Of a stretch of DNA of 29,489 nt, positions 1 to 29,489 are shown in pieces. The position numbers were made by a program, and so were the translations under genes. The stretch spans positions 1 to 29,489 of IMG/VR virus record IMGVR_UViG_3300045988_149075; one strand, 5' to 3'. Within the stretch, counting starts at the first letter, position 1, and every line of letters starts with the position of its first letter. Below the pieces are notes generated by a model. That model saw only the letters and a list, made by a program, of their open reading frames with translations, did not search any database and had not been told where the DNA came from. The DNA comes from a virus.

Positions 1-49
1 TAGGAACTTGGTGAGGTGCGCCTCCCCATAACTACGACTGTCCACCACA
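1..49. repeat. attL: 49-bp direct repeat identical to 29441..29489 (prophage boundary)
   Basis: Exact 49-nt identity between the first and last 49 nt of the window. A tyrosine integrase gene is adjacent and transcribed toward this end. Confidence 0.85.
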
Positions 50-191
50 ACAGTTCCGTTTTGGTGGTACAATTTCTGGCTACTATACCTTTTAGCTGGT
101 AGAGAGCCATAAGAGTTATTGGTGTAAAAATACCTGGAAGGGCAATTGCTCTTCTCAACTGCCCTTAGTATAGCAAAGTCGGTTAAATATG

Positions 192-1157
192 TCAATAGCC
201 TTGAGCTTTATTCATAGCTTTATAGAACTGACTTTCAGCCAACTCATCTTTAATTTGAAGATATATTTGGACCGTCGATATGTCACTGTGCCCTAGCAGC
301 TTCTGTATTGTCATGAGGTCGCAGCCAGCAATTAGCAATCGAACGGCGAAACTGTGACGTAATTGATGAGGCGTCATATGGATTCCAGCATGTTTCTTAA
401 AAGCTCGCTGTAGCTGCACTCTGGCAGTTTTATCATTTACTTTGAATAGAGGACCAGTAAAGCGGTTATAATCTGTAGCAAATTCATCTATCTTCTCTTT
501 TAAGCGCTCAGTGAGAAATACTGTGCGATCTTTGGATCCTTTCCCTTTAACGTATAGGTTTAACCCATCAATATCCTTATAGCTTACCCTAGCTATTTCT
601 GAAATGCGCAATCCAGTGTCGTAAGCGAAGTCGACAAGCATGTTTATATACTGATCTCTGCTATTTTCAGCCGTTTTTCGGAGGACTGACTGGATAACTT
701 GATGCTGTATGTATCTTGGGCGCGGTTTGGCGTTTTTGTGCGATTTGATGAGGTCAGGATTAATACAACTCACATTCATGCGCTCGTAGCACCATTTGAA
801 AAACGCTTTAATGACTCGCTTGACAGTGTTAGTAGTTGATCCAGCATGAGTTTTTCGGTATTCATAGAAATAAAAATCGAGCCATCTGACAGACAGCTCG
901 GTTATGTTAGTTTTATGTAATTCATTGCAGAAATTGACGAAGTGTTTGAGGCGAACTACCCTGGTTGCAATTGTCGATGGCGACATATCTTCGACGACTG
1001 CTGAATAATGAATAAACTGAAATGCCAGCTCGCGTATATTTTCGGTATAGTAGTCTGTCTGAAACGCAGACTCTGTGTGATGTAGATTGTCAATTACAGC
1101 TGTTTTTGAGGTGGTGGTTAATATGGATGGTGTCATTCTTCTCTCCTTAAATGACAT
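192..1157 (-). CDS. int: Tyrosine recombinase / phage integrase
   Basis: 321 aa. C-terminal catalytic residues are visible: R in GLRISE, HQLRHSF (HxxR), LLGH, and the Tyr in IYLQI. Sits next to attL. Confidence 0.9.
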   Translation of the reverse strand: MSFKERRMTPSILTTTSKTAVIDNLHHTESAFQTDYYTENIRELAFQFIHYSAVVEDMSPSTIATRVVRLKHFVNFCNELHKTNITELSVRWLDFYFYEYRKTHAGSTTNTVKRVIKAFFKWCYERMNVSCINPDLIKSHKNAKPRPRYIQHQVIQSVLRKTAENSRDQYINMLVDFAYDTGLRISEIARVSYKDIDGLNLYVKGKGSKDRTVFLTERLKEKIDEFATDYNRFTGPLFKVNDKTARVQLQRAFKKHAGIHMTPHQLRHSFAVRLLIAGCDLMTIQKLLGHSDISTVQIYLQIKDELAESQFYKAMNKAQGY

Positions 1158-4517: not shown

Positions 4518-4847
4518 CTATTTTTCCTCAGTACCGTACACGCCGCGAGATTCACGCTCAACCTTACGATTAGCCAGCCACATAATAGCTTCCTCAATTT
4601 TCGTAAGAGCTAAACTGTTTTCACGACAAGGCAATCCTCGGTTGTAGTCTGCTAGTTTTGAGTAAGCTACAATAAGCAAGTCCTCAATAAATACACCGTT
4701 GCGCTCTGTGGTAGCTGTGCCGCCAGTTTGAAACTTGATTTTCAGTACCTCTTTGCCCGCGATATTAAGAGAAACTTCGTCGCCTGGCGTGCCGCGATTC
4801 AGTTCATTGTGCAATTCTTCTAGTGCATTATATTTGGTAGTTTTCAT
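4518..4847 (-). CDS. Hypothetical protein between endolysin and holin
   Basis: 109-aa ORF. Confidence 0.5.
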   Translation of the reverse strand: MKTTKYNALEELHNELNRGTPGDEVSLNIAGKEVLKIKFQTGGTATTERNGVFIEDLLIVAYSKLADYNRGLPCRENSLALTKIEEAIMWLANRKVERESRGVYGTEEK

Positions 4848-6343: not shown

Positions 6344-6709
6344 TTGACGACCATGCCTGTTGCTGGATTTATAGCAACTAAGACCAACAACGACGTTAAT
6401 GCTAAAAAACCGCTAAAAATGCAATGCGGTCGTGCAAGGGTTGTCATACCTACTGACGCAATTGAAGCTACTGTTGTGGTACAATTTCCAGAGCAGTTTA
6501 ATAGTGGTACAACGCCTGTTGTTACATGTACGTATAACGGCTACGGCAACGCTAGCGATCCGTGGACAGACGCACCAAATCCATCTTGGGCTGGTGCAGC
6601 AATTGGGGCAGTTAGCGTTACTAATTCAGGATTTACGGCAAGGTGTCGGCGTTTTGATGGGGCTATGCTAAGAGGTACGTATTATTTTAGCTGGATGGCT
6701 ATAGGCTAA
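6344..6709 (+). CDS. H-type lectin domain protein, encoded antisense to the tail operon
   Basis: 121 aa. C-terminal NSGFTARCRRFDG...YYFSWMAIG matches the H-type lectin signature (TxGF...W.A.G). Its stop codon abuts the stop of the convergent minus-strand gene. Confidence 0.55.
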   Translation: MTTMPVAGFIATKTNNDVNAKKPLKMQCGRARVVIPTDAIEATVVVQFPEQFNSGTTPVVTCTYNGYGNASDPWTDAPNPSWAGAAIGAVSVTNSGFTARCRRFDGAMLRGTYYFSWMAIG

Positions 6710-10232: not shown

Positions 10233-11058
10233 TTAAATTATTTCCCGGAGCGATTAATAGCTGACCAATAACATTCCTCGAAACGATAGCATCGTTTAGT
10301 CGCGCTTCACCGGTCGAAAAGTCAACGACAAGCGTCTGAGTTGATGATATGCTGCCATGATAAGTTGCCGATGTGTCTGTCGTATTATTCTGAATTGATG
10401 GATTGACAGCAGGACCTCGCAGGACCCAGACAGGATAAACCTTAACGGTTGAAGAAACAAACACGCTGCTTAGCCCACCGCTTGCACCAGCCCAGACCTC
10501 GCCAACTGTATCAAATACTTGCCCTTTGCTGTCCCAAACCTCACCACCAGTTGCGGCTGAGACACGACCCAGCTTTACATTGTTCGAATACACCTCATGA
10601 CCGCTACCGTCTTCGGAATATTCGAACAAGACTGAGTTGCCCACTTTGAATTCGGTTGAAAATGTCGTATTGCCTTCATCTGCTGGCACAGGCAAATCTA
10701 AGCTGCTACTCCGCCAAGCCCCTTTAATAGCAAATAGCTGACCGTCTCGTCTTCCATAAACCAAGGTAAATGTATGATTGGCAGCAAAAAAGCTACTAAT
10801 CATACTGTATAGCCTCCAAAAACCACTCTCTTTAGGCAAGATCAACCCATTGATTGATTGGGTGTAGGTAGACAGTCTCTGACGAATCATTTCGCCGCCA
10901 TCTGTATCGGTGTAGTCTATGTCTGAAGTGTCGAGGTCTGGTCGTTGCAGTAAGCTATTGTCGGCGCTCAGCGTTATTTCAGGACCAGTAAGATCAAGAC
11001 GCTCACCGTCATCCCTCACTACTGCCACCAAGCTAAATTTACCACGTAAAGTTATCAT
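10165..11058 (-). CDS. Distal tail protein (Dit-like)
   Basis: 297 aa. Directly follows the tape measure gene with a 4-nt overlap. Beta-rich. Confidence 0.55.
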   Translation of the reverse strand: MITLRGKFSLVAVVRDDGERLDLTGPEITLSADNSLLQRPDLDTSDIDYTDTDGGEMIRQRLSTYTQSINGLILPKESGFWRLYSMISSFFAANHTFTLVYGRRDGQLFAIKGAWRSSSLDLPVPADEGNTTFSTEFKVGNSVLFEYSEDGSGHEVYSNNVKLGRVSAATGGEVWDSKGQVFDTVGEVWAGASGGLSSVFVSSTVKVYPVWVLRGPAVNPSIQNNTTDTSATYHGSISSTQTLVVDFSTGEARLNDAIVSRNVIGQLLIAPGNNLIGFDVESGGATTSELEWNNVIG

Positions 11059-13412
11059 CCCATCACCCTCCCTTTTCGCAAGGCGATTATTTTACTAATT
11101 TCATCAGCAAGCTCTTTTGGATCACGATTATAACCGTTGATATTAATAGTCTGATACAACGTATTGCCAGCGCTGCCAGTCGTGTTTATGTCATTCAGCT
11201 TGTCGTAGCCAATCTTACGTGCAGATGACGCCTTAATGACATACTCGCCGTTTGAGAGTAGCATTGGAATTGAATCGCTAGTTGGACCACCAGGACCGAA
11301 TACTGGACCACCCTTAGCGCGCTTACCCAACTTAAAGCCGGATAAATTGACTGGGTTAGCTTTCACACCAACCGCTTTTAGGGCGTTGCCGATACCAGGA
11401 ATATTGATGATATTATTAATCACTTTATTCAGCGAATCTTGCAGCAAGTCAATCATGCCGTCTAACAAGCCAGCAGTAAAGTTGCGTGTGATTCCGTAGC
11501 CAGTACCGTACCAGTCTTGCCCTCCAACAGAACTGATCAAGTTAGCGATAGAGTTGATGATTTTGGATATTCCATTCGATATAGAATCCACCACGCGTGA
11601 TATAGCATTACCGGCGCTCTCAATTACGCCGCCGATTGAGTTGAACACGTCAGTCAGACCGCCGGCTACTGCATTTGTAAGCGGGATAACAGCTTCATTT
11701 GTCAACCTGATTATAGTGGTAGTAACCGCAGACAGCACGACCAAAAACGTGCCTACTAAAAACGCTGCCAGCGGGATTACTACCATATTCAAAAAATCTC
11801 TTAGCCCTGGCGATACGATACCAAGCGCACCGCCGATTAGCAGGATTGCGGCTGCCACACCGGCAGCAGCTGCAGTGAATGACAGTACACCCACCAGCAC
11901 ATCCGGTGATGCCAAAGCCTTAAAGAATCCAGCAACAGTCTCGCCTGCACCCTTGAAGAACTCTTTTACCGGCTGCCAAGCACTCTGTATGGCACCACCA
12001 GCCAAAGTCCCCATCTCCTTAAAAAAGTTAGCCATGCTCTTACCAAAAGTAAACTCTCTCGGCGCTTTCTTGACTGCGGATGATAACTTATCCACGCCGC
12101 CTGCTGCCGTATCAGCCGACGTCCCGACTGCGCTGCCAGCGCCCTCCATTGTTTTCGTCACAGCATCAACCGAACCTTTAGCAGCCTTCAAATCTTTGAA
12201 TTTACCTATCAACGTCTGAGCGCCGCCGATGACGCCAGTAAAAATACCCTTGCCTAGCTTTGCCCACGGCTTTAGCGTATCAAGCGCAGAACGCGCACCG
12301 CCTGTAGCTATCTGCAAAGCCTTGAATCCAACAGCTAACTTTACAATATTAGCGATTAGCTCTGGATTATTTTTAGCAAAGTCAAATAGCTTGCGAATAG
12401 TATCCACAGCGTCTTTTAATCCCTGAGCCAATTCTGGCGATTGTTTTTTAATCTCCTCAAAAACAGTCTTCAGCATGCTTTTTATGACTGGTGCCAAATT
12501 CTGTAAGAATTGTTTTGCGCTGGCTAGAAATATATTGAACGACTCTTCAAAATTACCGTTTGGATCAGCCAGTGATGTTAGCATATTATCAAATGCAGCT
12601 TTAGCAGCATTAAAACTACCGCTAATTGTCGATGACGCCTCCTTAGCTGAGGTGCCAGTAATATCAAGCTTAGTTTGAATACTATGTATAGCCTCGATAA
12701 CCTTATCAAACGGAATACTGCTGACGTTTTTAGCTGTCGCCTTAAACGTCTTACCCATCACACCACTATCGTTGATAAGGCGTGCCATCTCGCTTGCAGT
12801 ACCACCGTAGCCAAGCTTCAAGTTGTCGAGCATGGTATAGTTGTTCTTTGCAAATCCCTGATATGCGTACTGAATTGATTCCATCGACGTACCCATTTTA
12901 TTTGCATTGTCAGCCATGTCAGTGATAGCCATGTCTGCTATCTTCGTGGCTTTAGCGGTGTCACCTTTTAATCCCTGTAACAATGACGCAGAAAAACTCG
13001 TAACAGTATCCATATACTGATTAGCTGATAACTGAGCTGTTTTGTATGCATTCTTGGCGTATTGGACCACCTCACCCGAATTCTTCTTGAAGAGTGTTTC
13101 CACACCACCAACAAGCTGCTCATACTCAGCGAACTGCTTAACAGCATATGTAGCAATACCTCCCAGCCCGACCATCGCGCCAGCTGCCAGTGACTTAAAT
13201 TTAGAGAACGCTTCATCGGACCGTTTGCCAAACTCTGAAAACGCCTCACCAAAAGCCGCTTTAGATGACGCTAAAAAACTGCTCTTAAATTTAGAGCCAA
13301 AGTTATTACTGGCACCATCACCAGCGTCACCAAGTGCTTTCTTGATGTCGTTAGAAACCCCTTTGAGAGAGGGCTTTATCTGAATCCATGCTGTACCGAT
13401 TGAAGTTGCCAT
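11055..13412 (-). CDS. Tape measure protein
   Basis: 785 aa. Ala/Gly/Lys-rich helical sequence with a hydrophobic TM-like central block. Positioned after the G/GT chaperones. Confidence 0.85.
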   Translation of the reverse strand: MATSIGTAWIQIKPSLKGVSNDIKKALGDAGDGASNNFGSKFKSSFLASSKAAFGEAFSEFGKRSDEAFSKFKSLAAGAMVGLGGIATYAVKQFAEYEQLVGGVETLFKKNSGEVVQYAKNAYKTAQLSANQYMDTVTSFSASLLQGLKGDTAKATKIADMAITDMADNANKMGTSMESIQYAYQGFAKNNYTMLDNLKLGYGGTASEMARLINDSGVMGKTFKATAKNVSSIPFDKVIEAIHSIQTKLDITGTSAKEASSTISGSFNAAKAAFDNMLTSLADPNGNFEESFNIFLASAKQFLQNLAPVIKSMLKTVFEEIKKQSPELAQGLKDAVDTIRKLFDFAKNNPELIANIVKLAVGFKALQIATGGARSALDTLKPWAKLGKGIFTGVIGGAQTLIGKFKDLKAAKGSVDAVTKTMEGAGSAVGTSADTAAGGVDKLSSAVKKAPREFTFGKSMANFFKEMGTLAGGAIQSAWQPVKEFFKGAGETVAGFFKALASPDVLVGVLSFTAAAAGVAAAILLIGGALGIVSPGLRDFLNMVVIPLAAFLVGTFLVVLSAVTTTIIRLTNEAVIPLTNAVAGGLTDVFNSIGGVIESAGNAISRVVDSISNGISKIINSIANLISSVGGQDWYGTGYGITRNFTAGLLDGMIDLLQDSLNKVINNIINIPGIGNALKAVGVKANPVNLSGFKLGKRAKGGPVFGPGGPTSDSIPMLLSNGEYVIKASSARKIGYDKLNDINTTGSAGNTLYQTININGYNRDPKELADEISKIIALRKGRVMG

Positions 13413-13485
13413 AAAAAATGCGAATAAATAGTTTATTTATCCGCATTTGCCGCAAGCGTGGCGTTGTAATGATTATATTATATCA
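13408..13485 (-). promoter_or_regulatory. Late promoter cassette A (78-bp exact repeat of 19029..19106): extended -10 TGATATAAT, conserved leader, hairpin and U6 abutting the tape measure ATG
   Basis: Minus strand reads TGATATAAT, then CAACGCCACGCTTGCGGCAAATGCGG, then hairpin GCGGAUAAAUA-AAC-UAUUUAUUCGC (complement of 13420..13444), then AUUUUUU-AUG. Confidence 0.65.
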
Positions 13486-13767
13486 TATGCTAAGGTTTTC
13501 GACAAAAGACCCCAGCCAACCTGGCTTAGTCTTCAACGCGCCAGCAGTCCGCTTGTCAGCAGCCTTAATCATCACTCGTTGACGAAATGCCGTCGGCTCT
13601 GTCATAAGCTCAAAGTTGCCCTCAAAACCAAACTCCACTACAAATTGCGCTCTCACTGTATCCAGAATACGATTCATGTTCTGCATCTGGATCTGCGCTA
13701 TGCCTGGATTATTGCGAAGTATGTCCGCGCCGCCAGATTTATCAAGAATAAAATCTACATTTGACAT
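13483..13767 (-). CDS. Hypothetical protein, divergent partner of the nuclease gene
   Basis: 94-aa ORF. Its TGA stop is the TG-A of the extended -10 of cassette A. Confidence 0.45.
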   Translation of the reverse strand: MSNVDFILDKSGGADILRNNPGIAQIQMQNMNRILDTVRAQFVVEFGFEGNFELMTEPTAFRQRVMIKAADKRTAGALKTKPGWLGSFVENLSI

Positions 13768-13796
13768 ATCTACATAATATCACATAGTATATTATT

Positions 13797-13825
13797 TTGC
13801 ATTTTGAGTATACTATTGTTACAAT
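13797..13825 (+). promoter_or_regulatory. Sigma-70-type promoter TTGCAT-17-TACAAT (plus strand) inside the palindrome TTGCATTT...AAATGCAA
   Basis: -35 at 13797..13802, -10 at 13820..13825. The inverted repeat TTGCATTT (13797..13804) / AAATGCAA (13826..13833) spans the promoter. Confidence 0.6.
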
Positions 13826-13856
13826 AAATGCAAGTTTTAAGATAAAAGAGGATATT

Positions 13857-14513
13857 ATGTCTACAGAGTTTCAAGAGAAAGCTTGTGAAAAAGCATTACG
13901 CGAATATCGCAAAAAATACTTAACAAAAAAGGAAAACCTCAATGCTGATGAATCGACAGCGCGATTGATGGTCAATAGTTTACTCAGCACTGTGCTTGGA
14001 TACACGTTAATTGACGAGATAAAGACTGAGCATATGATACGCGGTACCTACGTTGATTATGTCGTACAATTAAACAAGAAGATTCATTTTATTGTTGAAG
14101 CCAAAGCAACTTCTATCGATCTAAATGAACGACACTTAAAACAAGCGGTTGACTATGCCTCAAACGAAGGCGTTGACTGGGTCATTCTGACAAATGGTCG
14201 CTGTATTGAGTTGCACCGTGTCATTTTTGAGAAGCCGATTCGCTCGCAGCGTATCTTCGCATATGACCTGACAAATCTGTCAACAATCCGCACTGCTGCT
14301 AAGCACCTAGTCAACCTTACTAAGAAATCTGTATTAAAAGGCGATTTGGACAAGTACTGGAAGCGATTTGATGCATTGACCGAAGACAACATGAGAAAAG
14401 CTATCAAGTCACCTGATGTCGTTCGCAGTTTGCGCTTGTTTATTAAGAAAAAGTCAACAATCAACTTCACCGACGCTGAAATTGCTAAGGCTCTTGATAA
14501 ACTGATCAGCTAG
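13857..14513 (+). CDS. PD-(D/E)xK nuclease-fold protein resembling the N-terminal domain of type I restriction HsdR (HSDR_N-like)
   Basis: Start taken at the internal ATG at 13857, which has RBS AAAGAGGA; the track ORF begins with TTG at 13797. Motif VDYVVQLNKKIHFIVEAKA fits D...E-x-K. The stop codon overlaps the GT stop as CTAG. Confidence 0.6.
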   Translation: MSTEFQEKACEKALREYRKKYLTKKENLNADESTARLMVNSLLSTVLGYTLIDEIKTEHMIRGTYVDYVVQLNKKIHFIVEAKATSIDLNERHLKQAVDYASNEGVDWVILTNGRCIELHRVIFEKPIRSQRIFAYDLTNLSTIRTAAKHLVNLTKKSVLKGDLDKYWKRFDALTEDNMRKAIKSPDVVRSLRLFIKKKSTINFTDAEIAKALDKLIS

Positions 14514-14971
14514 TCCTGATATTGCGCGTTCGGGTTCAGATGTTGCCATAAATCTTTTAAGTCATCCTGCTCTTCCGCTTGCTGTTTCTTACGATCTTTA
14601 TCAAGCTGTTTGCGCATTTCAGCAACATACTCTGGCTCAAACTTCTTCATAGCTTTAGCAGGCTTAGCAGTTTTGCGTTTATTCATATTATAAGTCAGTG
14701 TTGTGAGTATATTCAGCTCTTGTAGTATTTGGCTCAACGTTTCGTCGCGCCATGTCCAGCTAGCTGATGGCACTAGCTTGCGGAAAATCCTGCTTTCTAC
14801 TGGCAAATTCTCAAATAGCCTAGCATAGCGTAAGAAACCGCTTCGACGTCCGTCGGTATCCGGGCAAGCTTCTAATAAGTTCAGATGGTAATACTGTTGG
14901 AAATCAGCTTCAACTAGACTAAATTCTTCCACGAACGCCGCTGCGCTCGATTGCCAGCTTTTGGGAAGCAT
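14510..14971 (-). CDS. Tail assembly chaperone, -1 frameshift extension (GT-like; expressed as a fusion with 14914..15231)
   Basis: Overlaps the upstream G-like ORF by 58 nt in the -1 frame. Slippery heptamer C_CCA_AAA lies in the overlap (complement of 14949..14955). Confidence 0.65.
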   Translation of the reverse strand: MLPKSWQSSAAAFVEEFSLVEADFQQYYHLNLLEACPDTDGRRSGFLRYARLFENLPVESRIFRKLVPSASWTWRDETLSQILQELNILTTLTYNMNKRKTAKPAKAMKKFEPEYVAEMRKQLDKDRKKQQAEEQDDLKDLWQHLNPNAQYQD

Positions 14972-15231
14972 TCGTCCACCTTCGCAGTAATCTCTAGTAG
15001 CGCTTTCTGCGAGAAGTAACCATATTCTTTCTCGATATAAACACGAATGTCATCATAAACCTTATCACCACCAATCAACGCCATGTACATAGTCACTAGC
15101 TCAGAGATATTGCCAGTTCGGTGCGCTTCAGATAAGTCACTAATGAAATCAAAGTCGTCCATTAGCTGCATATTGACATCAACGGTGTATCCATCCCAAA
15201 GTTCAATTGTCTTTTTTGGCTCACTCGCCAT
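14914..15231 (-). CDS. Tail assembly chaperone (G-like)
   Basis: 105-aa acidic protein between the major tail protein and the tape measure. RBS GGAGGG. Confidence 0.65.
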   Translation of the reverse strand: MASEPKKTIELWDGYTVDVNMQLMDDFDFISDLSEAHRTGNISELVTMYMALIGGDKVYDDIRVYIEKEYGYFSQKALLEITAKVDECFPKAGNRAQRRSWKNLV

Positions 15232-20620: not shown

Positions 20621-20944
20621 ATGGCACAGCGCAGGAAGTATGCAACAGCTAAAGATCCACGACGACAGTTCCCAAAACTACGAGAGGATTTGCGCAAAAG
20701 AGTTTATGCTATGCAAGATACTTGTGGTATCTGCGGACGTGAGGTCGACAAGACTTTGCCAGCAGGTAGCCCGATGTCACCAGAGCTAGACGAGATCATA
20801 CCAGTTTCTCGTGGCGGTTCGCCTTATGACATAGATAACCTACAGCTTACTCACAGGATATGCAACAGGCGTAAGGGGGCAAAGATGCCGGGGGATGATT
20901 TGCCAGACGATATCAACCCTACGCCAAATTCAAGAGCTTGGTAG
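20621..20944 (+). CDS. HNH endonuclease
   Basis: 107 aa. Contains CGICG...DEIIPVSRGG...DNLQLTHRICNRRKG, matching HNH motifs including the Cys pairs. Confidence 0.8.
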   Translation: MAQRRKYATAKDPRRQFPKLREDLRKRVYAMQDTCGICGREVDKTLPAGSPMSPELDEIIPVSRGGSPYDIDNLQLTHRICNRRKGAKMPGDDLPDDINPTPNSRAW

Positions 20945-29440: not shown

Positions 29441-29489
29441 TAGGAACTTGGTGAGGTGCGCCTCCCCATAACTACGACTGTCCACCACA
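29441..29489. repeat. attR: 49-bp direct repeat identical to 1..49
   Basis: Exact identity with the first 49 nt of the window. Confidence 0.85.

What the first reader, a model, noticed from the sequence alone, without database searches (positions are those of the whole stretch)
13483..14513. Antisense-embedded PD-(D/E)xK (HsdR N-terminal domain-like) nuclease with its own consensus promoter and a divergent 94-aa partner, between tail chaperone GT and the tape measure
The plus-strand gene 13857..14513 carries the motif D-Y-V-V...I-V-E-A-K of restriction-endonuclease-fold nucleases of the HSDR_N type, has a strong SD, and has a TTGCAT-17-TACAAT promoter embedded in the palindrome TTGCATTT-N21-AAATGCAA. 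The palindrome may act as a bidirectional operator. A 94-aa gene of unknown function is transcribed divergently from it, toward cassette A. The nuclease stop overlaps the GT stop (CTAG), so late transcription runs antisense through it. This is the expected layout for a gene expressed in the lysogen and silenced by convergent transcription during lytic growth. A stand-alone HsdR_N-type nuclease with a small partner inserted at this non-canonical tail-module position is a plausible prophage-encoded defence (or anti-defence) module of an uncharacterised type.
Basis: partly seen in the sequence, partly recalled or inferred. Interest (0 to 1): 0.75.

Follow-up and report, generated by a model that had tools for sequence, protein, structure and literature searches.

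The report
Host-derived nuclease moron in Saccharibacteria phage
A temperate virus of the tiny mouth bacteria called Saccharibacteria carries, backwards inside its tail genes, a strongly conserved copy of one of its host's own DNA-cutting enzymes with the host promoter, probably made in the dormant virus to cut incoming foreign DNA, while the small gene beside it is a tail-operon gene and not its partner.

Summary

The window is a complete circular 29.4-kb temperate siphovirus of oral Saccharibacteria (Nanosynbacter).

The cassette 13796-14513 (promoter plus gene) is homologous to a chromosomal Saccharibacteria gene: 97% amino-acid but about 80% nucleotide identity, dN/dS about 0.01-0.02. That gene lies 0.1-1.2 kb from the phage's own attB (the 3' end of rsmD). 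Forty of 41 related phage contigs keep the gene, and one has a clean deletion.

The 94-aa ORF is not a partner. It diverges in step with the tail genes, survives the deletion, and in a second phage lineage is separated from the nuclease by another gene.

Distant homologues sit just downstream of CI/LexA-type repressors in four unrelated temperate phage groups. Others are fused to HARE-HTH or TerD domains.

Best reading (about 0.45): a lysogen-expressed, single-gene, restriction-like nuclease moron. Defence activity and expression are untested.

The parts
13796..14513 (+). Host-derived moron cassette: promoter, 5' UTR and nuclease gene. This is the block homologous to the chromosomal Saccharibacteria gene.
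   Evidence: blastn and MAFFT against CP040000 (L001) give about 80% nucleotide identity over window 13796-14512. Homology starts about 60 nt upstream of the ATG and stops at the stop codon. L199 lacks about 13797-14450.
13797..13825 (+). Sigma-70-like promoter: TTGCAT, 17 nt, TACAAT, with TG at 13817-13818.
   Evidence: Consensus scan. Both hexamers are conserved in four phage allele clades and in host copies (TTTACA ... TACAAT). Function is inferred.
13784..13833 (.). Two interleaved perfect 8-nt inverted repeats: ATAGTATA 13784-91 / TATACTAT 13809-16, and TTGCATTT 13797-804 / AAATGCAA 13826-33. They may be an operator.
   Evidence: Count against dinucleotide shuffles gives 0.04 expected per 100 nt. 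The second pair is kept in the phage-1 clades, is only 5/7 in host copies, and is absent in lineage 2. Its role is untested.
13857..14513 (+). 218-aa stand-alone PD-(D/E)xK nuclease. The nuclease core (about residues 30-135) is followed by an all-helical C-terminal domain (141-217).
14055..14156 (+). Codons of the catalytic residues: D67 (14055-57), E81 (14097-99), K83 (14103-05), Q96 (14142-44), Y100 (14154-56).
   Evidence: All are invariant in 36 homologues of 51-97% identity. The QxxxY RecB-family motif is defined in PMC2475608.
13483..13767 (-). 94-aa conserved gene of the tail operon, directly upstream of the tape measure gene. Function unknown. Not part of the cassette.
   Evidence: Lineage-2 homologues at 43-50% identity in the same position. 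dN/dS 0.007-0.045. Retained in the deletion variant L199. AF2 pLDDT 72.7, with no informative fold match.
14510..15231 (-). Tail assembly chaperone pair G (14914-15231) and T (14510-14971). The T stop overlaps the nuclease stop.
   Evidence: PHROG tail assembly chaperone phrog_5813 E 5.7e-5 matches the T part. ORF layout.
11055..13412 (-). Tape measure protein (785 aa). Its transcription from the late operon must run antisense through the nuclease gene.
   Evidence: ORF size and position. Conserved in both phage lineages.
1..63 (.). attP core. It matches the last 20 codons of host rsmD (Cons_hypoth95 family). The last 49 nt of the window repeat the first 49 nt, so the assembly is circular.
   Evidence: blastn and tblastn to host loci and to integrated prophages L208 and L209.
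192..1157 (-). Tyrosine integrase, showing the phage is temperate.
   Evidence: Pfam Phage_integrase E 4.8e-28. Integrated copies adjoin host amylase.

Best explanation
Window 13796-14513 is a moron, meaning a self-contained promoter-plus-gene cassette. A 29.4-kb temperate siphovirus of oral Saccharibacteria (Nanosynbacter/TM7 G1) holds it antisense between its tail chaperone gene T and a conserved 94-aa tail-operon gene.

Shown:
- The cassette is homologous to a chromosomal Saccharibacteria gene, promoter included.
- Its product is a stand-alone nuclease of the HsdR-N/RecB-motif PD-(D/E)xK type with a helical C-terminal domain.
- It is under the strongest purifying selection of the phage genes examined.
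- It is dispensable for the virion module.

Inferred:
- Host RNA polymerase transcribes it from its host-type promoter in the lysogen.
- The enzyme cuts incoming foreign DNA, such as superinfecting phage or transforming DNA, as a one-gene restriction-like exclusion system.
- Because there is no cognate methyltransferase or partner, self-DNA is probably spared through dependence on a DNA modification or a DNA structure or end, as in Type IV enzymes.
- During lytic growth, convergent late transcription crosses the gene and probably damps it.
For: Nuclease identity:
- Pfam HSDR_N_2 scores above its cut-off.
- D67, E81, K83, Q96 and Y100 are invariant.
- The AF2 model has pLDDT 91.7.

Phage and lifestyle:
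- An integrase is present.
- The assembly is circular and has an attP.
- Integrated copies exist.

Host origin:
- Amino-acid identity is 97% and nucleotide identity about 80% to the gene of Ca. Saccharibacteria oral taxon 488. The homology covers the promoter and ends at the stop codon.

Selection:
- dN/dS is 0.013-0.02, against 0.02-0.15 for most neighbouring phage genes; only one orf94 comparison is lower (0.007).
- A full-length gene is kept in 40 of 41 IMG/VR contigs of this phage family.
- It sits in the same slot in a second lineage whose structural proteins are only 50-69% identical, yet the nuclease is 82% identical.

Accessory nature:
- L199 has a clean deletion and carries a different antisense ORF next door.
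- Lineage 2 has an extra 240-aa gene in the slot.

Lysogeny link:
- Homologues of 31-37% identity lie behind CI/LexA-type repressors in 18 of 25 other IMG/VR phage loci and in Thermus phage Riverbug.

Conflict-system signature:
- Family members are fused to HARE-HTH or TerD.
- Chromosomal copies sit in a variable spot beside an attB used by two different integrative elements.
- No conserved partner was found at 78 genome loci.
Against: - No expression or phenotype data are available.
- The protein matches no complete model of a known defence system in PADLOC.
- The protein changes far more slowly than is usual for defence genes. It is 41-56% identical across several Patescibacteria lineages and often lies among housekeeping genes such as HisRS, GlyRS/RecO and RecG. 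This fits a conserved cellular DNA-processing role equally well.
- Hosts of the G1 type already carry a 97% identical copy, so the benefit of a prophage copy is unclear.
- The protein has no recognisable modification-reading domain.
- No terminator follows the gene.
Confidence: 0.45

Rival explanations
1. Auxiliary copy of a cellular DNA-metabolism gene. In this reading the family is a conserved Patescibacteria housekeeping nuclease. It could act in recombination or repair, or in breaking down imported DNA for nucleotide salvage in these auxotrophic epibionts. The phage copy would then boost or replace that function in the lysogen or during infection.
For: - The family is 41-56% identical across Saccharibacteria, Parcubacteria, Peregrinibacteria, Gracilibacteria and others.
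- dN/dS is very low.
- Neighbours are often housekeeping genes: HisRS, GlyRS-like, RecO, RecG, rsmD.
- All three integrated prophage junctions seen lie in a host type that lacks the gene at the syntenic site. This would fit complementation.
Against: - Synteny is not conserved even among close species.
- The tight family has only 177 clusters at 50% identity with E <= 1e-30.
- Homologues sit in repressor operons of phages of unrelated, non-CPR-like GC content.
- HARE-HTH and TerD fusions and some conflict-type neighbours point to conflict systems.
Confidence: 0.25
2. Lytic-cycle nuclease. The enzyme would degrade host DNA or process phage replication or recombination intermediates during productive infection.
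For: - RecB-type motif nucleases commonly serve phage recombination and host DNA breakdown (established knowledge).
- Catalytic residues are intact.
Against: - The gene is oriented against the late operon and lies far from the replication/recombination module, which already encodes RusA and YopX.
- It uses the host gene's own promoter.
- A deletion variant exists.
- Distant homologues are in lysogeny operons.
Confidence: 0.12
3. Two-gene module with the 94-aa ORF, for example nuclease plus inhibitor or adaptor, controlled by a shared bidirectional operator.
For: - The two genes are arranged divergently, 89 nt apart.
- Two inverted repeats lie in the spacer.
- The two genes co-occur in 40 of 41 contigs.
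Against: - orf94 is kept when the nuclease and its promoter are deleted.
- It is separated from the nuclease by a 240-aa gene in L013-L015.
- It diverges like the tail proteins (43-50%), while the nuclease stays at 82%.
- It is absent from every chromosomal and other-phage context of the nuclease family.
Confidence: 0.05
4. Selfish free-standing homing endonuclease gene that spreads between related phages at this intergenic site.
For: - It occupies the same slot in two diverged phage lineages.
- It is better conserved than its flanks and has its own promoter.
Against: - Synonymous sites between the two lineages are saturated (69% nucleotide identity), so there has been no recent transfer.
- The flanking genes T and orf94 are the least conserved, so there is no co-conversion.
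- The promoters differ between lineages.
- Close chromosomal homologues exist in non-phage contexts.
Confidence: 0.05

Closest known systems
Nuclease domain of Type I restriction subunit HsdR (EcoR124I, PDB 2w00; HsdR fragment 3h1t)
   Different: This protein has no SF2 translocase domains and no HsdM or HsdS genes nearby. It is only 218 aa with a helical C-terminal domain. NCBIfam EcoAI HsdR scores 21.8 bits against a cut-off of 550.
N-terminal nuclease domains of Type IIG/IIL enzymes BpuSI (3s1s) and DrdV (7lo5)
   Different: There is no fused methyltransferase or target-recognition domain.
Phage morons such as lambda lom/bor and HK97-type tail-region morons (concept of Hendrix and colleagues, from my own knowledge)
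   Same: An autonomous promoter-plus-gene unit inserted between genes of a late operon. It is absent from a close relative, of foreign (here host) origin, and presumed to be expressed from the prophage.
   Different: It is antisense and has no recognisable terminator. Its chromosomal source is identifiable and lies beside the phage's attB.
Exclusion genes co-transcribed with the prophage repressor, such as lambda cI-rexA-rexB (from my own knowledge)
   Same: Distant homologues of this nuclease occupy exactly that position behind CI/LexA-type repressors in four other phage groups, including Thermus phage Riverbug gp55.
   Different: In this phage the gene is in the tail module under a host-type promoter. 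The biochemistry is unrelated to RexAB.
Type IV (modification-dependent) restriction endonucleases
   Same: A solitary nuclease without a cognate methyltransferase. Some family members are fused to HARE-HTH, a domain proposed to read modified DNA (PMC11037411 citing Aravind and Iyer 2012).
   Different: This protein has no recognisable modification-reading domain, and no activity data exist.

Membership tests
PD-(D/E)xK nuclease, HsdR N-terminal type (Pfam HSDR_N_2, PF13588) | Profile match above the curated threshold | tested here: met
   35.3 bits against a cut-off of 25, E 1.3e-8.
PD-(D/E)xK nuclease, HsdR N-terminal type (Pfam HSDR_N_2, PF13588) | Catalytic D...(D/E)xK triad and the RecB-family QxxxY motif | tested here: met
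   D67, E81, K83, Q96 and Y100 are invariant in 36 sequences. The motif is defined in PMC2475608.
PD-(D/E)xK nuclease, HsdR N-terminal type (Pfam HSDR_N_2, PF13588) | Alpha-beta-beta-beta-alpha-beta restriction-endonuclease fold | tested here: met
PD-(D/E)xK nuclease, HsdR N-terminal type (Pfam HSDR_N_2, PF13588) | Metal-dependent DNA cleavage | not testable with these tools
   Needs purified protein.
Type I restriction enzyme R subunit (HsdR) | SF2 helicase/translocase domains in the same polypeptide | tested here: not met
   218 aa with no helicase domains. NCBIfam EcoAI scores 21.8 bits against 550.
Type I restriction enzyme R subunit (HsdR) | Adjacent hsdM and hsdS genes | tested here: not met
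   None in the window, at 78 genome loci or among 136 immediate neighbours.
Type IV modification-dependent restriction enzyme | Solitary nuclease without a cognate methyltransferase | tested here: met
   No conserved partner. The phage cassette holds only this gene.
Type IV modification-dependent restriction enzyme | Domain that reads modified DNA | tested here: inconclusive
   None recognisable in this protein. HARE-HTH is fused in distant members P0126 and P0140. The C-terminal helical domain is unassigned.
Type IV modification-dependent restriction enzyme | Cleavage only of modified DNA | not testable with these tools
   Needs a biochemical assay.
Phage moron | Own promoter, independent of the surrounding operon | tested here: met
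   A sigma-70-like promoter shared with the host copy. Activity is inferred.
Phage moron | Present or absent between otherwise similar phages, with foreign origin | tested here: met
   L199 deletion variant. Host homologue at 97% amino-acid identity.
Phage moron | Own terminator | tested here: not met
   No + strand terminator-like site between 14513 and 17400.
Known anti-phage defence systems (PADLOC-DB v2.0.0) | Full-length match to a system protein model | tested here: not met
   Only partial nuclease-domain hits to the REase_MTase_IIG, MTase_II and mad2 models.
Two-gene module with the 94-aa ORF | The two genes are inherited and lost together | tested here: not met
   orf94 occurs without the nuclease in L199. 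The nuclease occurs without orf94 in all chromosomal and other-phage contexts. An intervening gene is present in L013-L015.
Tail-module component (for the 94-aa ORF) | Conserved position and co-divergence with tail genes | tested here: met
   Directly upstream of the tape measure gene in both lineages, at 43-50% identity against 50-69% for tail and head proteins.
Tail-module component (for the 94-aa ORF) | Homology or fold match to a known tail or neck protein | tested here: inconclusive

The most novel reading that the evidence does not exclude
The 218-aa protein represents an uncharacterised single-gene defence family. It would be a stand-alone HsdR-N/RecB-motif nuclease with a new helical DNA-recognition domain. 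Genome-reduced Patescibacteria, which have few known defences, would keep it on the chromosome. Temperate phages of several phyla would carry it as lysogen-expressed cargo, behind their repressors or, as here, as a host-derived moron.

In addition, the phage and chromosomal copies lie as direct repeats about 14 kb apart around the phage's attB, and they stay 95-97% identical in protein despite saturated synonymous change. This may reflect a functional interplay, such as mixed oligomers, or replacement of the host copy in hosts that lack it.
Probability: 0.35. Interest if true: 0.65.

Novelty: new variant of a known kind. Interest (0 to 1): 0.5.

Why it matters
Saccharibacteria and other Patescibacteria have tiny genomes and few recognised anti-phage systems, and their phages have only recently become experimentally tractable. 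If confirmed, this would be a strongly conserved, partner-less nuclease shared between these bacteria and their prophages. It also recurs in the repressor operons of unrelated temperate phages, so it would add a simple one-gene system to the defence catalogue.

It would also give a concrete case of a phage capturing a host gene, promoter included, from beside its own integration site. If the gene instead proves to be a cellular DNA-processing enzyme, it would be a rare auxiliary host gene in a CPR phage.

Either way, the finding is a clear and testable lead rather than a new principle.

Tried and rejected
- Near-identity DNA search of 50,697 deposited phages found no match.
- Profile search against PDB sequences gave only a spurious ubiquitin hit.
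- PADLOC and NCBIfam gave no full-length family.
- I looked for a conserved partner in two ways: clustering neighbours within four genes at 78 genome loci and a Pfam scan of 136 immediate neighbours. Neither found one.
- orf94:
  - Sequence searches found only six close relatives.
  - The AF2 model was of moderate quality.
  - BFVD gave nothing significant.
  - Its function therefore stays unknown.
- Homing-endonuclease idea: rejected because of saturated synonymous divergence, non-conserved flanks and different promoters.
- The chromosomal copy as a simple prophage remnant, or capture by simple aberrant excision: neither fits. No second att core or other phage sequence flanks the chromosomal gene, and the phage copy lies 13.8 kb from att.
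- Attempts to reach the far prophage junction, and to find lysogens of the nuclease-bearing host type, failed. The exact-protein look-ups returned only short or phage-only contigs.
- Literature on TM7 prophages and Saccharibacteria phages (PMC7739484, PMC10746230) does not mention this gene.
Full report
**1. The observation**

- The + strand ORF is 13857-14513. The start is the ATG at 13857, because homologues all begin M[AS]T[ED]FQEK.
- The motif reads ...VDYVVQLNKKIHFIVEAKA.
- The ribosome-binding site AAGAGGA lies 4 nt before the ATG.
- The promoter is TTGCAT (13797-13802), 17 nt, TACAAT (13820-13825), with an extended -10 TG.
- The palindrome is TTGCATTT 13797-13804 / AAATGCAA 13826-13833.
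- The 94-aa ORF is at 13483-13767 on the minus strand.
- The nuclease TAG overlaps the stop of the minus-strand T chaperone ORF (14510-14971).

A single promoter-like match is not significant: 8 were found against 3.4 +/- 1.8 in shuffles. The hexamers are, however, conserved across diverged alleles. The 89-nt spacer contains two interleaved perfect 8-nt inverted repeats where 0.04 per 100 nt is expected.

**2. What the protein is**

- Pfam HSDR_N_2 matches above its threshold (E 1.3e-8).
- PHROG 17239 (unknown function) matches over the full length (E 4e-41).
- In 36 homologues of 51-97% identity, D67, E81 and K83 are invariant. So are Q96 and Y100, which form the QxxxY motif characteristic of HsdR and RecB-family nucleases (PMC2475608).
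- An AlphaFold2 model (pLDDT 91.7) shows the canonical core followed by six helices.
- It is not an HsdR subunit. It has no translocase domains, no hsdM or hsdS neighbours, and scores far below the NCBIfam cut-off.
- It matches no complete PADLOC defence model.

**3. What carries it**

- The window is a circular assembly, since the last 49 nt equal the first 49 nt. The phage genome is about 29,440 bp.
- It encodes an integrase (192-1157), terminase, portal, capsid, major tail protein, G/T chaperones, tape measure and lysin, all on the minus strand.
- The identical nuclease protein is indexed in 228 blocks of public assemblies. All six contexts shown are this phage, including copies inside contigs of 170 and 327 kb.
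- Two GTDB Saccharibacteria MAGs contain the phage.
- attP (window 1-63) matches the last 20 codons of host rsmD.
- Integrated copies (L208, L209, L219) abut Saccharibacteria genes: alpha-amylase, Band_7 and MgsA.
- The host is therefore oral Saccharibacteria of the Nanosynbacter / oral taxon 488 group, and the phage is temperate.

**4. Origin of the cassette**

The closest relative outside the phage is a chromosomal gene of Ca. Saccharibacteria oral taxon 488 (CP040000). It lies between alpha-amylase and small ORFs, rsmD and recG.
- Amino-acid identity is 96-97%, but nucleotide identity is only about 80%.
- The homologous block runs from window 13796 to 14513. It therefore includes the promoter and ends at the stop codon.
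- Synonymous sites are saturated, and dN is about 0.027.
- Within this phage lineage there are four allele clades. They are only 78-86% identical in nucleotides yet 95-99% identical in protein.
- dN/dS is 0.013-0.02, against 0.02-0.15 for most neighbouring phage genes. Only one orf94 comparison is lower, at 0.007.
- On a protein tree, the host G1 alleles and the phage-1 alleles form one tight cluster. It is distinct from other host alleles (80-84%) and from the second phage lineage (82%).

**5. A link to the integration site**

- In all 14 Nanosynbacter-type chromosomal loci, the phage's attB lies close downstream of the chromosomal nuclease gene. The distance is 1.18 kb in 12 of them, about 105 nt in L093 and similarly close in L095. 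The L093 order is amylase, nuclease (forward), rsmD (reverse), recG.
- For an 850-kb genome the chance of such proximity is about 0.3%.
- In three of those loci the same attB is occupied by a different element with a related integrase.
- The three integrated junctions of this phage that I could see lie in a host type that has two small ORFs instead of the nuclease between amylase and att.
- In a host of the L093 or L001 type, the chromosomal and prophage copies would be direct repeats about 14 kb apart.
- How the gene moved to a site 13.8 kb from att is not explained by simple aberrant excision.

**6. The 94-aa ORF**

- It is a real gene: dN/dS is 0.007-0.045.
- It belongs to the tail operon. 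It is on the late strand.
- A second phage lineage has a homologue of 43-50% identity directly upstream of its tape measure gene. That lineage's structural proteins are 50-69% identical, whereas its nuclease is 82% identical.
- In L013-L015 a 240-aa gene lies between the orf94 homologue and the nuclease.
- In L199 the nuclease promoter and 90% of the gene are deleted, leaving a 63-nt 3' remnant. orf94 stays intact 91 nt after the T stop.
- L199 also has another antisense ORF (169 aa, membrane-like) between orf94 and the tape measure gene. The G/T-to-tape-measure gap is therefore a cargo hotspot.
- Fold searches gave no function for orf94.

**7. The wider family**

- An exhaustive profile search found 177 clusters at 50% identity with E <= 1e-30 and 791 with E <= 1e-10.
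- Chromosomal homologues occur across Patescibacteria at 41-56% identity. They have no conserved neighbour: among 136 immediate neighbours there are 96 Pfam families. These mix housekeeping genes with some conflict or mobile-element types, including Schlafen/AlbA_2, reverse transcriptase, REase_MTES_1575, AAA_21, DpnI and resolvases.
- Some members are fused to HARE-HTH or TerD at the N terminus.
- In other temperate phages, homologues of 31-37% identity lie on the same strand behind a CI-type repressor (HTH_3 plus Peptidase_S24). This holds for 18 of 25 IMG/VR loci, often with a gap of 14-31 nt.
- In Thermus phage Riverbug the homologue starts 5 nt after the LexA-like regulator gene, upstream of the integrase.
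- That position is typical of genes expressed from the prophage.

**8. Mechanism**

Shown:
- An intact HsdR-N/RecB-motif nuclease.
- Carried as an autonomous, host-derived, antisense cassette.
- Strongly maintained: 40 of 41 contigs keep it.
- Not needed for the virion module.

Inferred: the host-type promoter drives expression in the lysogen, and the enzyme acts on incoming DNA as a one-gene, restriction-like exclusion function. Self-DNA would be spared by a modification or structure requirement. Convergent late transcription damps the gene during lytic growth.

I put this at about 0.45. The main rival (0.25) is a conserved cellular DNA-processing or salvage nuclease carried as an auxiliary gene. 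Slow protein evolution and housekeeping neighbourhoods favour that rival. Lytic-cycle use (0.12), the two-gene model (0.05) and homing (0.05) are less likely.

**9. Novelty and verdict**

The nuclease fold and the moron layout are known kinds. The following are new:
- The stand-alone architecture with an unassigned helical domain.
- Recurrence of the family in repressor operons.
- Its spread in Patescibacteria.
- The chromosomal source beside the phage's attB.

None of this is in PADLOC or in the TM7 phage literature I read. I rate it a new variant of a known kind, with interest about 0.5.

Noticed in passing
window 4518-4847 (-): This 109-aa protein, next to the lysin, matches the Pfam Acb2/Tad1 hairpin domain (E 5.3e-7, 30.2 bits against a cut-off of 27). 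It is a candidate cyclic-nucleotide sponge (anti-CBASS/anti-Thoeris) in a Saccharibacteria phage.
   Followed up: partly
window 1-63 and 29441-29489: The last 49 nt repeat the first 49 nt, so the assembly is circular and the genome is about 29,440 bp. The attP core matches the last 20 codons of host rsmD.
   Followed up: yes
L001 11841-11901; L093 5398-5463; also L004, L006, L086, L087, L089-L092, L095: The phage's attB lies 0.1-1.2 kb downstream of the chromosomal homologue of the phage's own nuclease gene in all 14 Nanosynbacter-type loci. The mechanism linking the two is unexplained.
   Followed up: partly
L002 8171-16987; L003; L005: A different integrative element occupies the same rsmD attB beside the chromosomal nuclease. 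Its integrase region is 71% identical in nucleotides to this phage's, and it carries a giant ART-PolyVal/PBECR3 protein.
   Followed up: no
L199 5302-5811 (-): In the nuclease-deletion variant, a different antisense 169-aa ORF with an N-terminal hydrophobic segment lies between orf94 and a variant 807-aa tape measure gene.
   Followed up: partly
L013 7133-7855 (-); also L014, L015: Some lineage-2 phages carry an extra 240-aa gene, with no Pfam match, between the orf94 homologue and the nuclease.
   Followed up: partly
window 13477-13505 (-): A promoter-like site on the late strand (TTGTCG, 17 nt, TATAAT, with TG) lies 65 nt upstream of the tape measure start. It could restart transcription downstream of the antisense cassette.
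   Followed up: no
L209 6526-6744 (-) and 6902-7144 (+); L219: In the host type where the prophage was seen integrated, a 72-aa and an 80-aa ORF occupy the amylase-rsmD gap in place of the nuclease.
   Followed up: partly
L001, L086, L087, L089-L092 nuclease genes: Chromosomal alleles from seven GTDB species representatives are 97-100% identical in nucleotides, whereas the phage alleles differ by 14-22%. The diversity is much greater in the phage pool.
   Followed up: partly
window 6344-6709 (+) and 20621-20944 (+): There are two other + strand genes in the otherwise minus-strand genome. One is a 121-aa ORF with a weak H-type lectin match in the tail-fibre region. The other is an HNH endonuclease near the terminase.
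   Followed up: no
L062, L065-L084: In another oral phage group the nuclease homologue is 95-99% conserved, while the repressor gene just upstream varies from 33 to 100% identity.
   Followed up: partly
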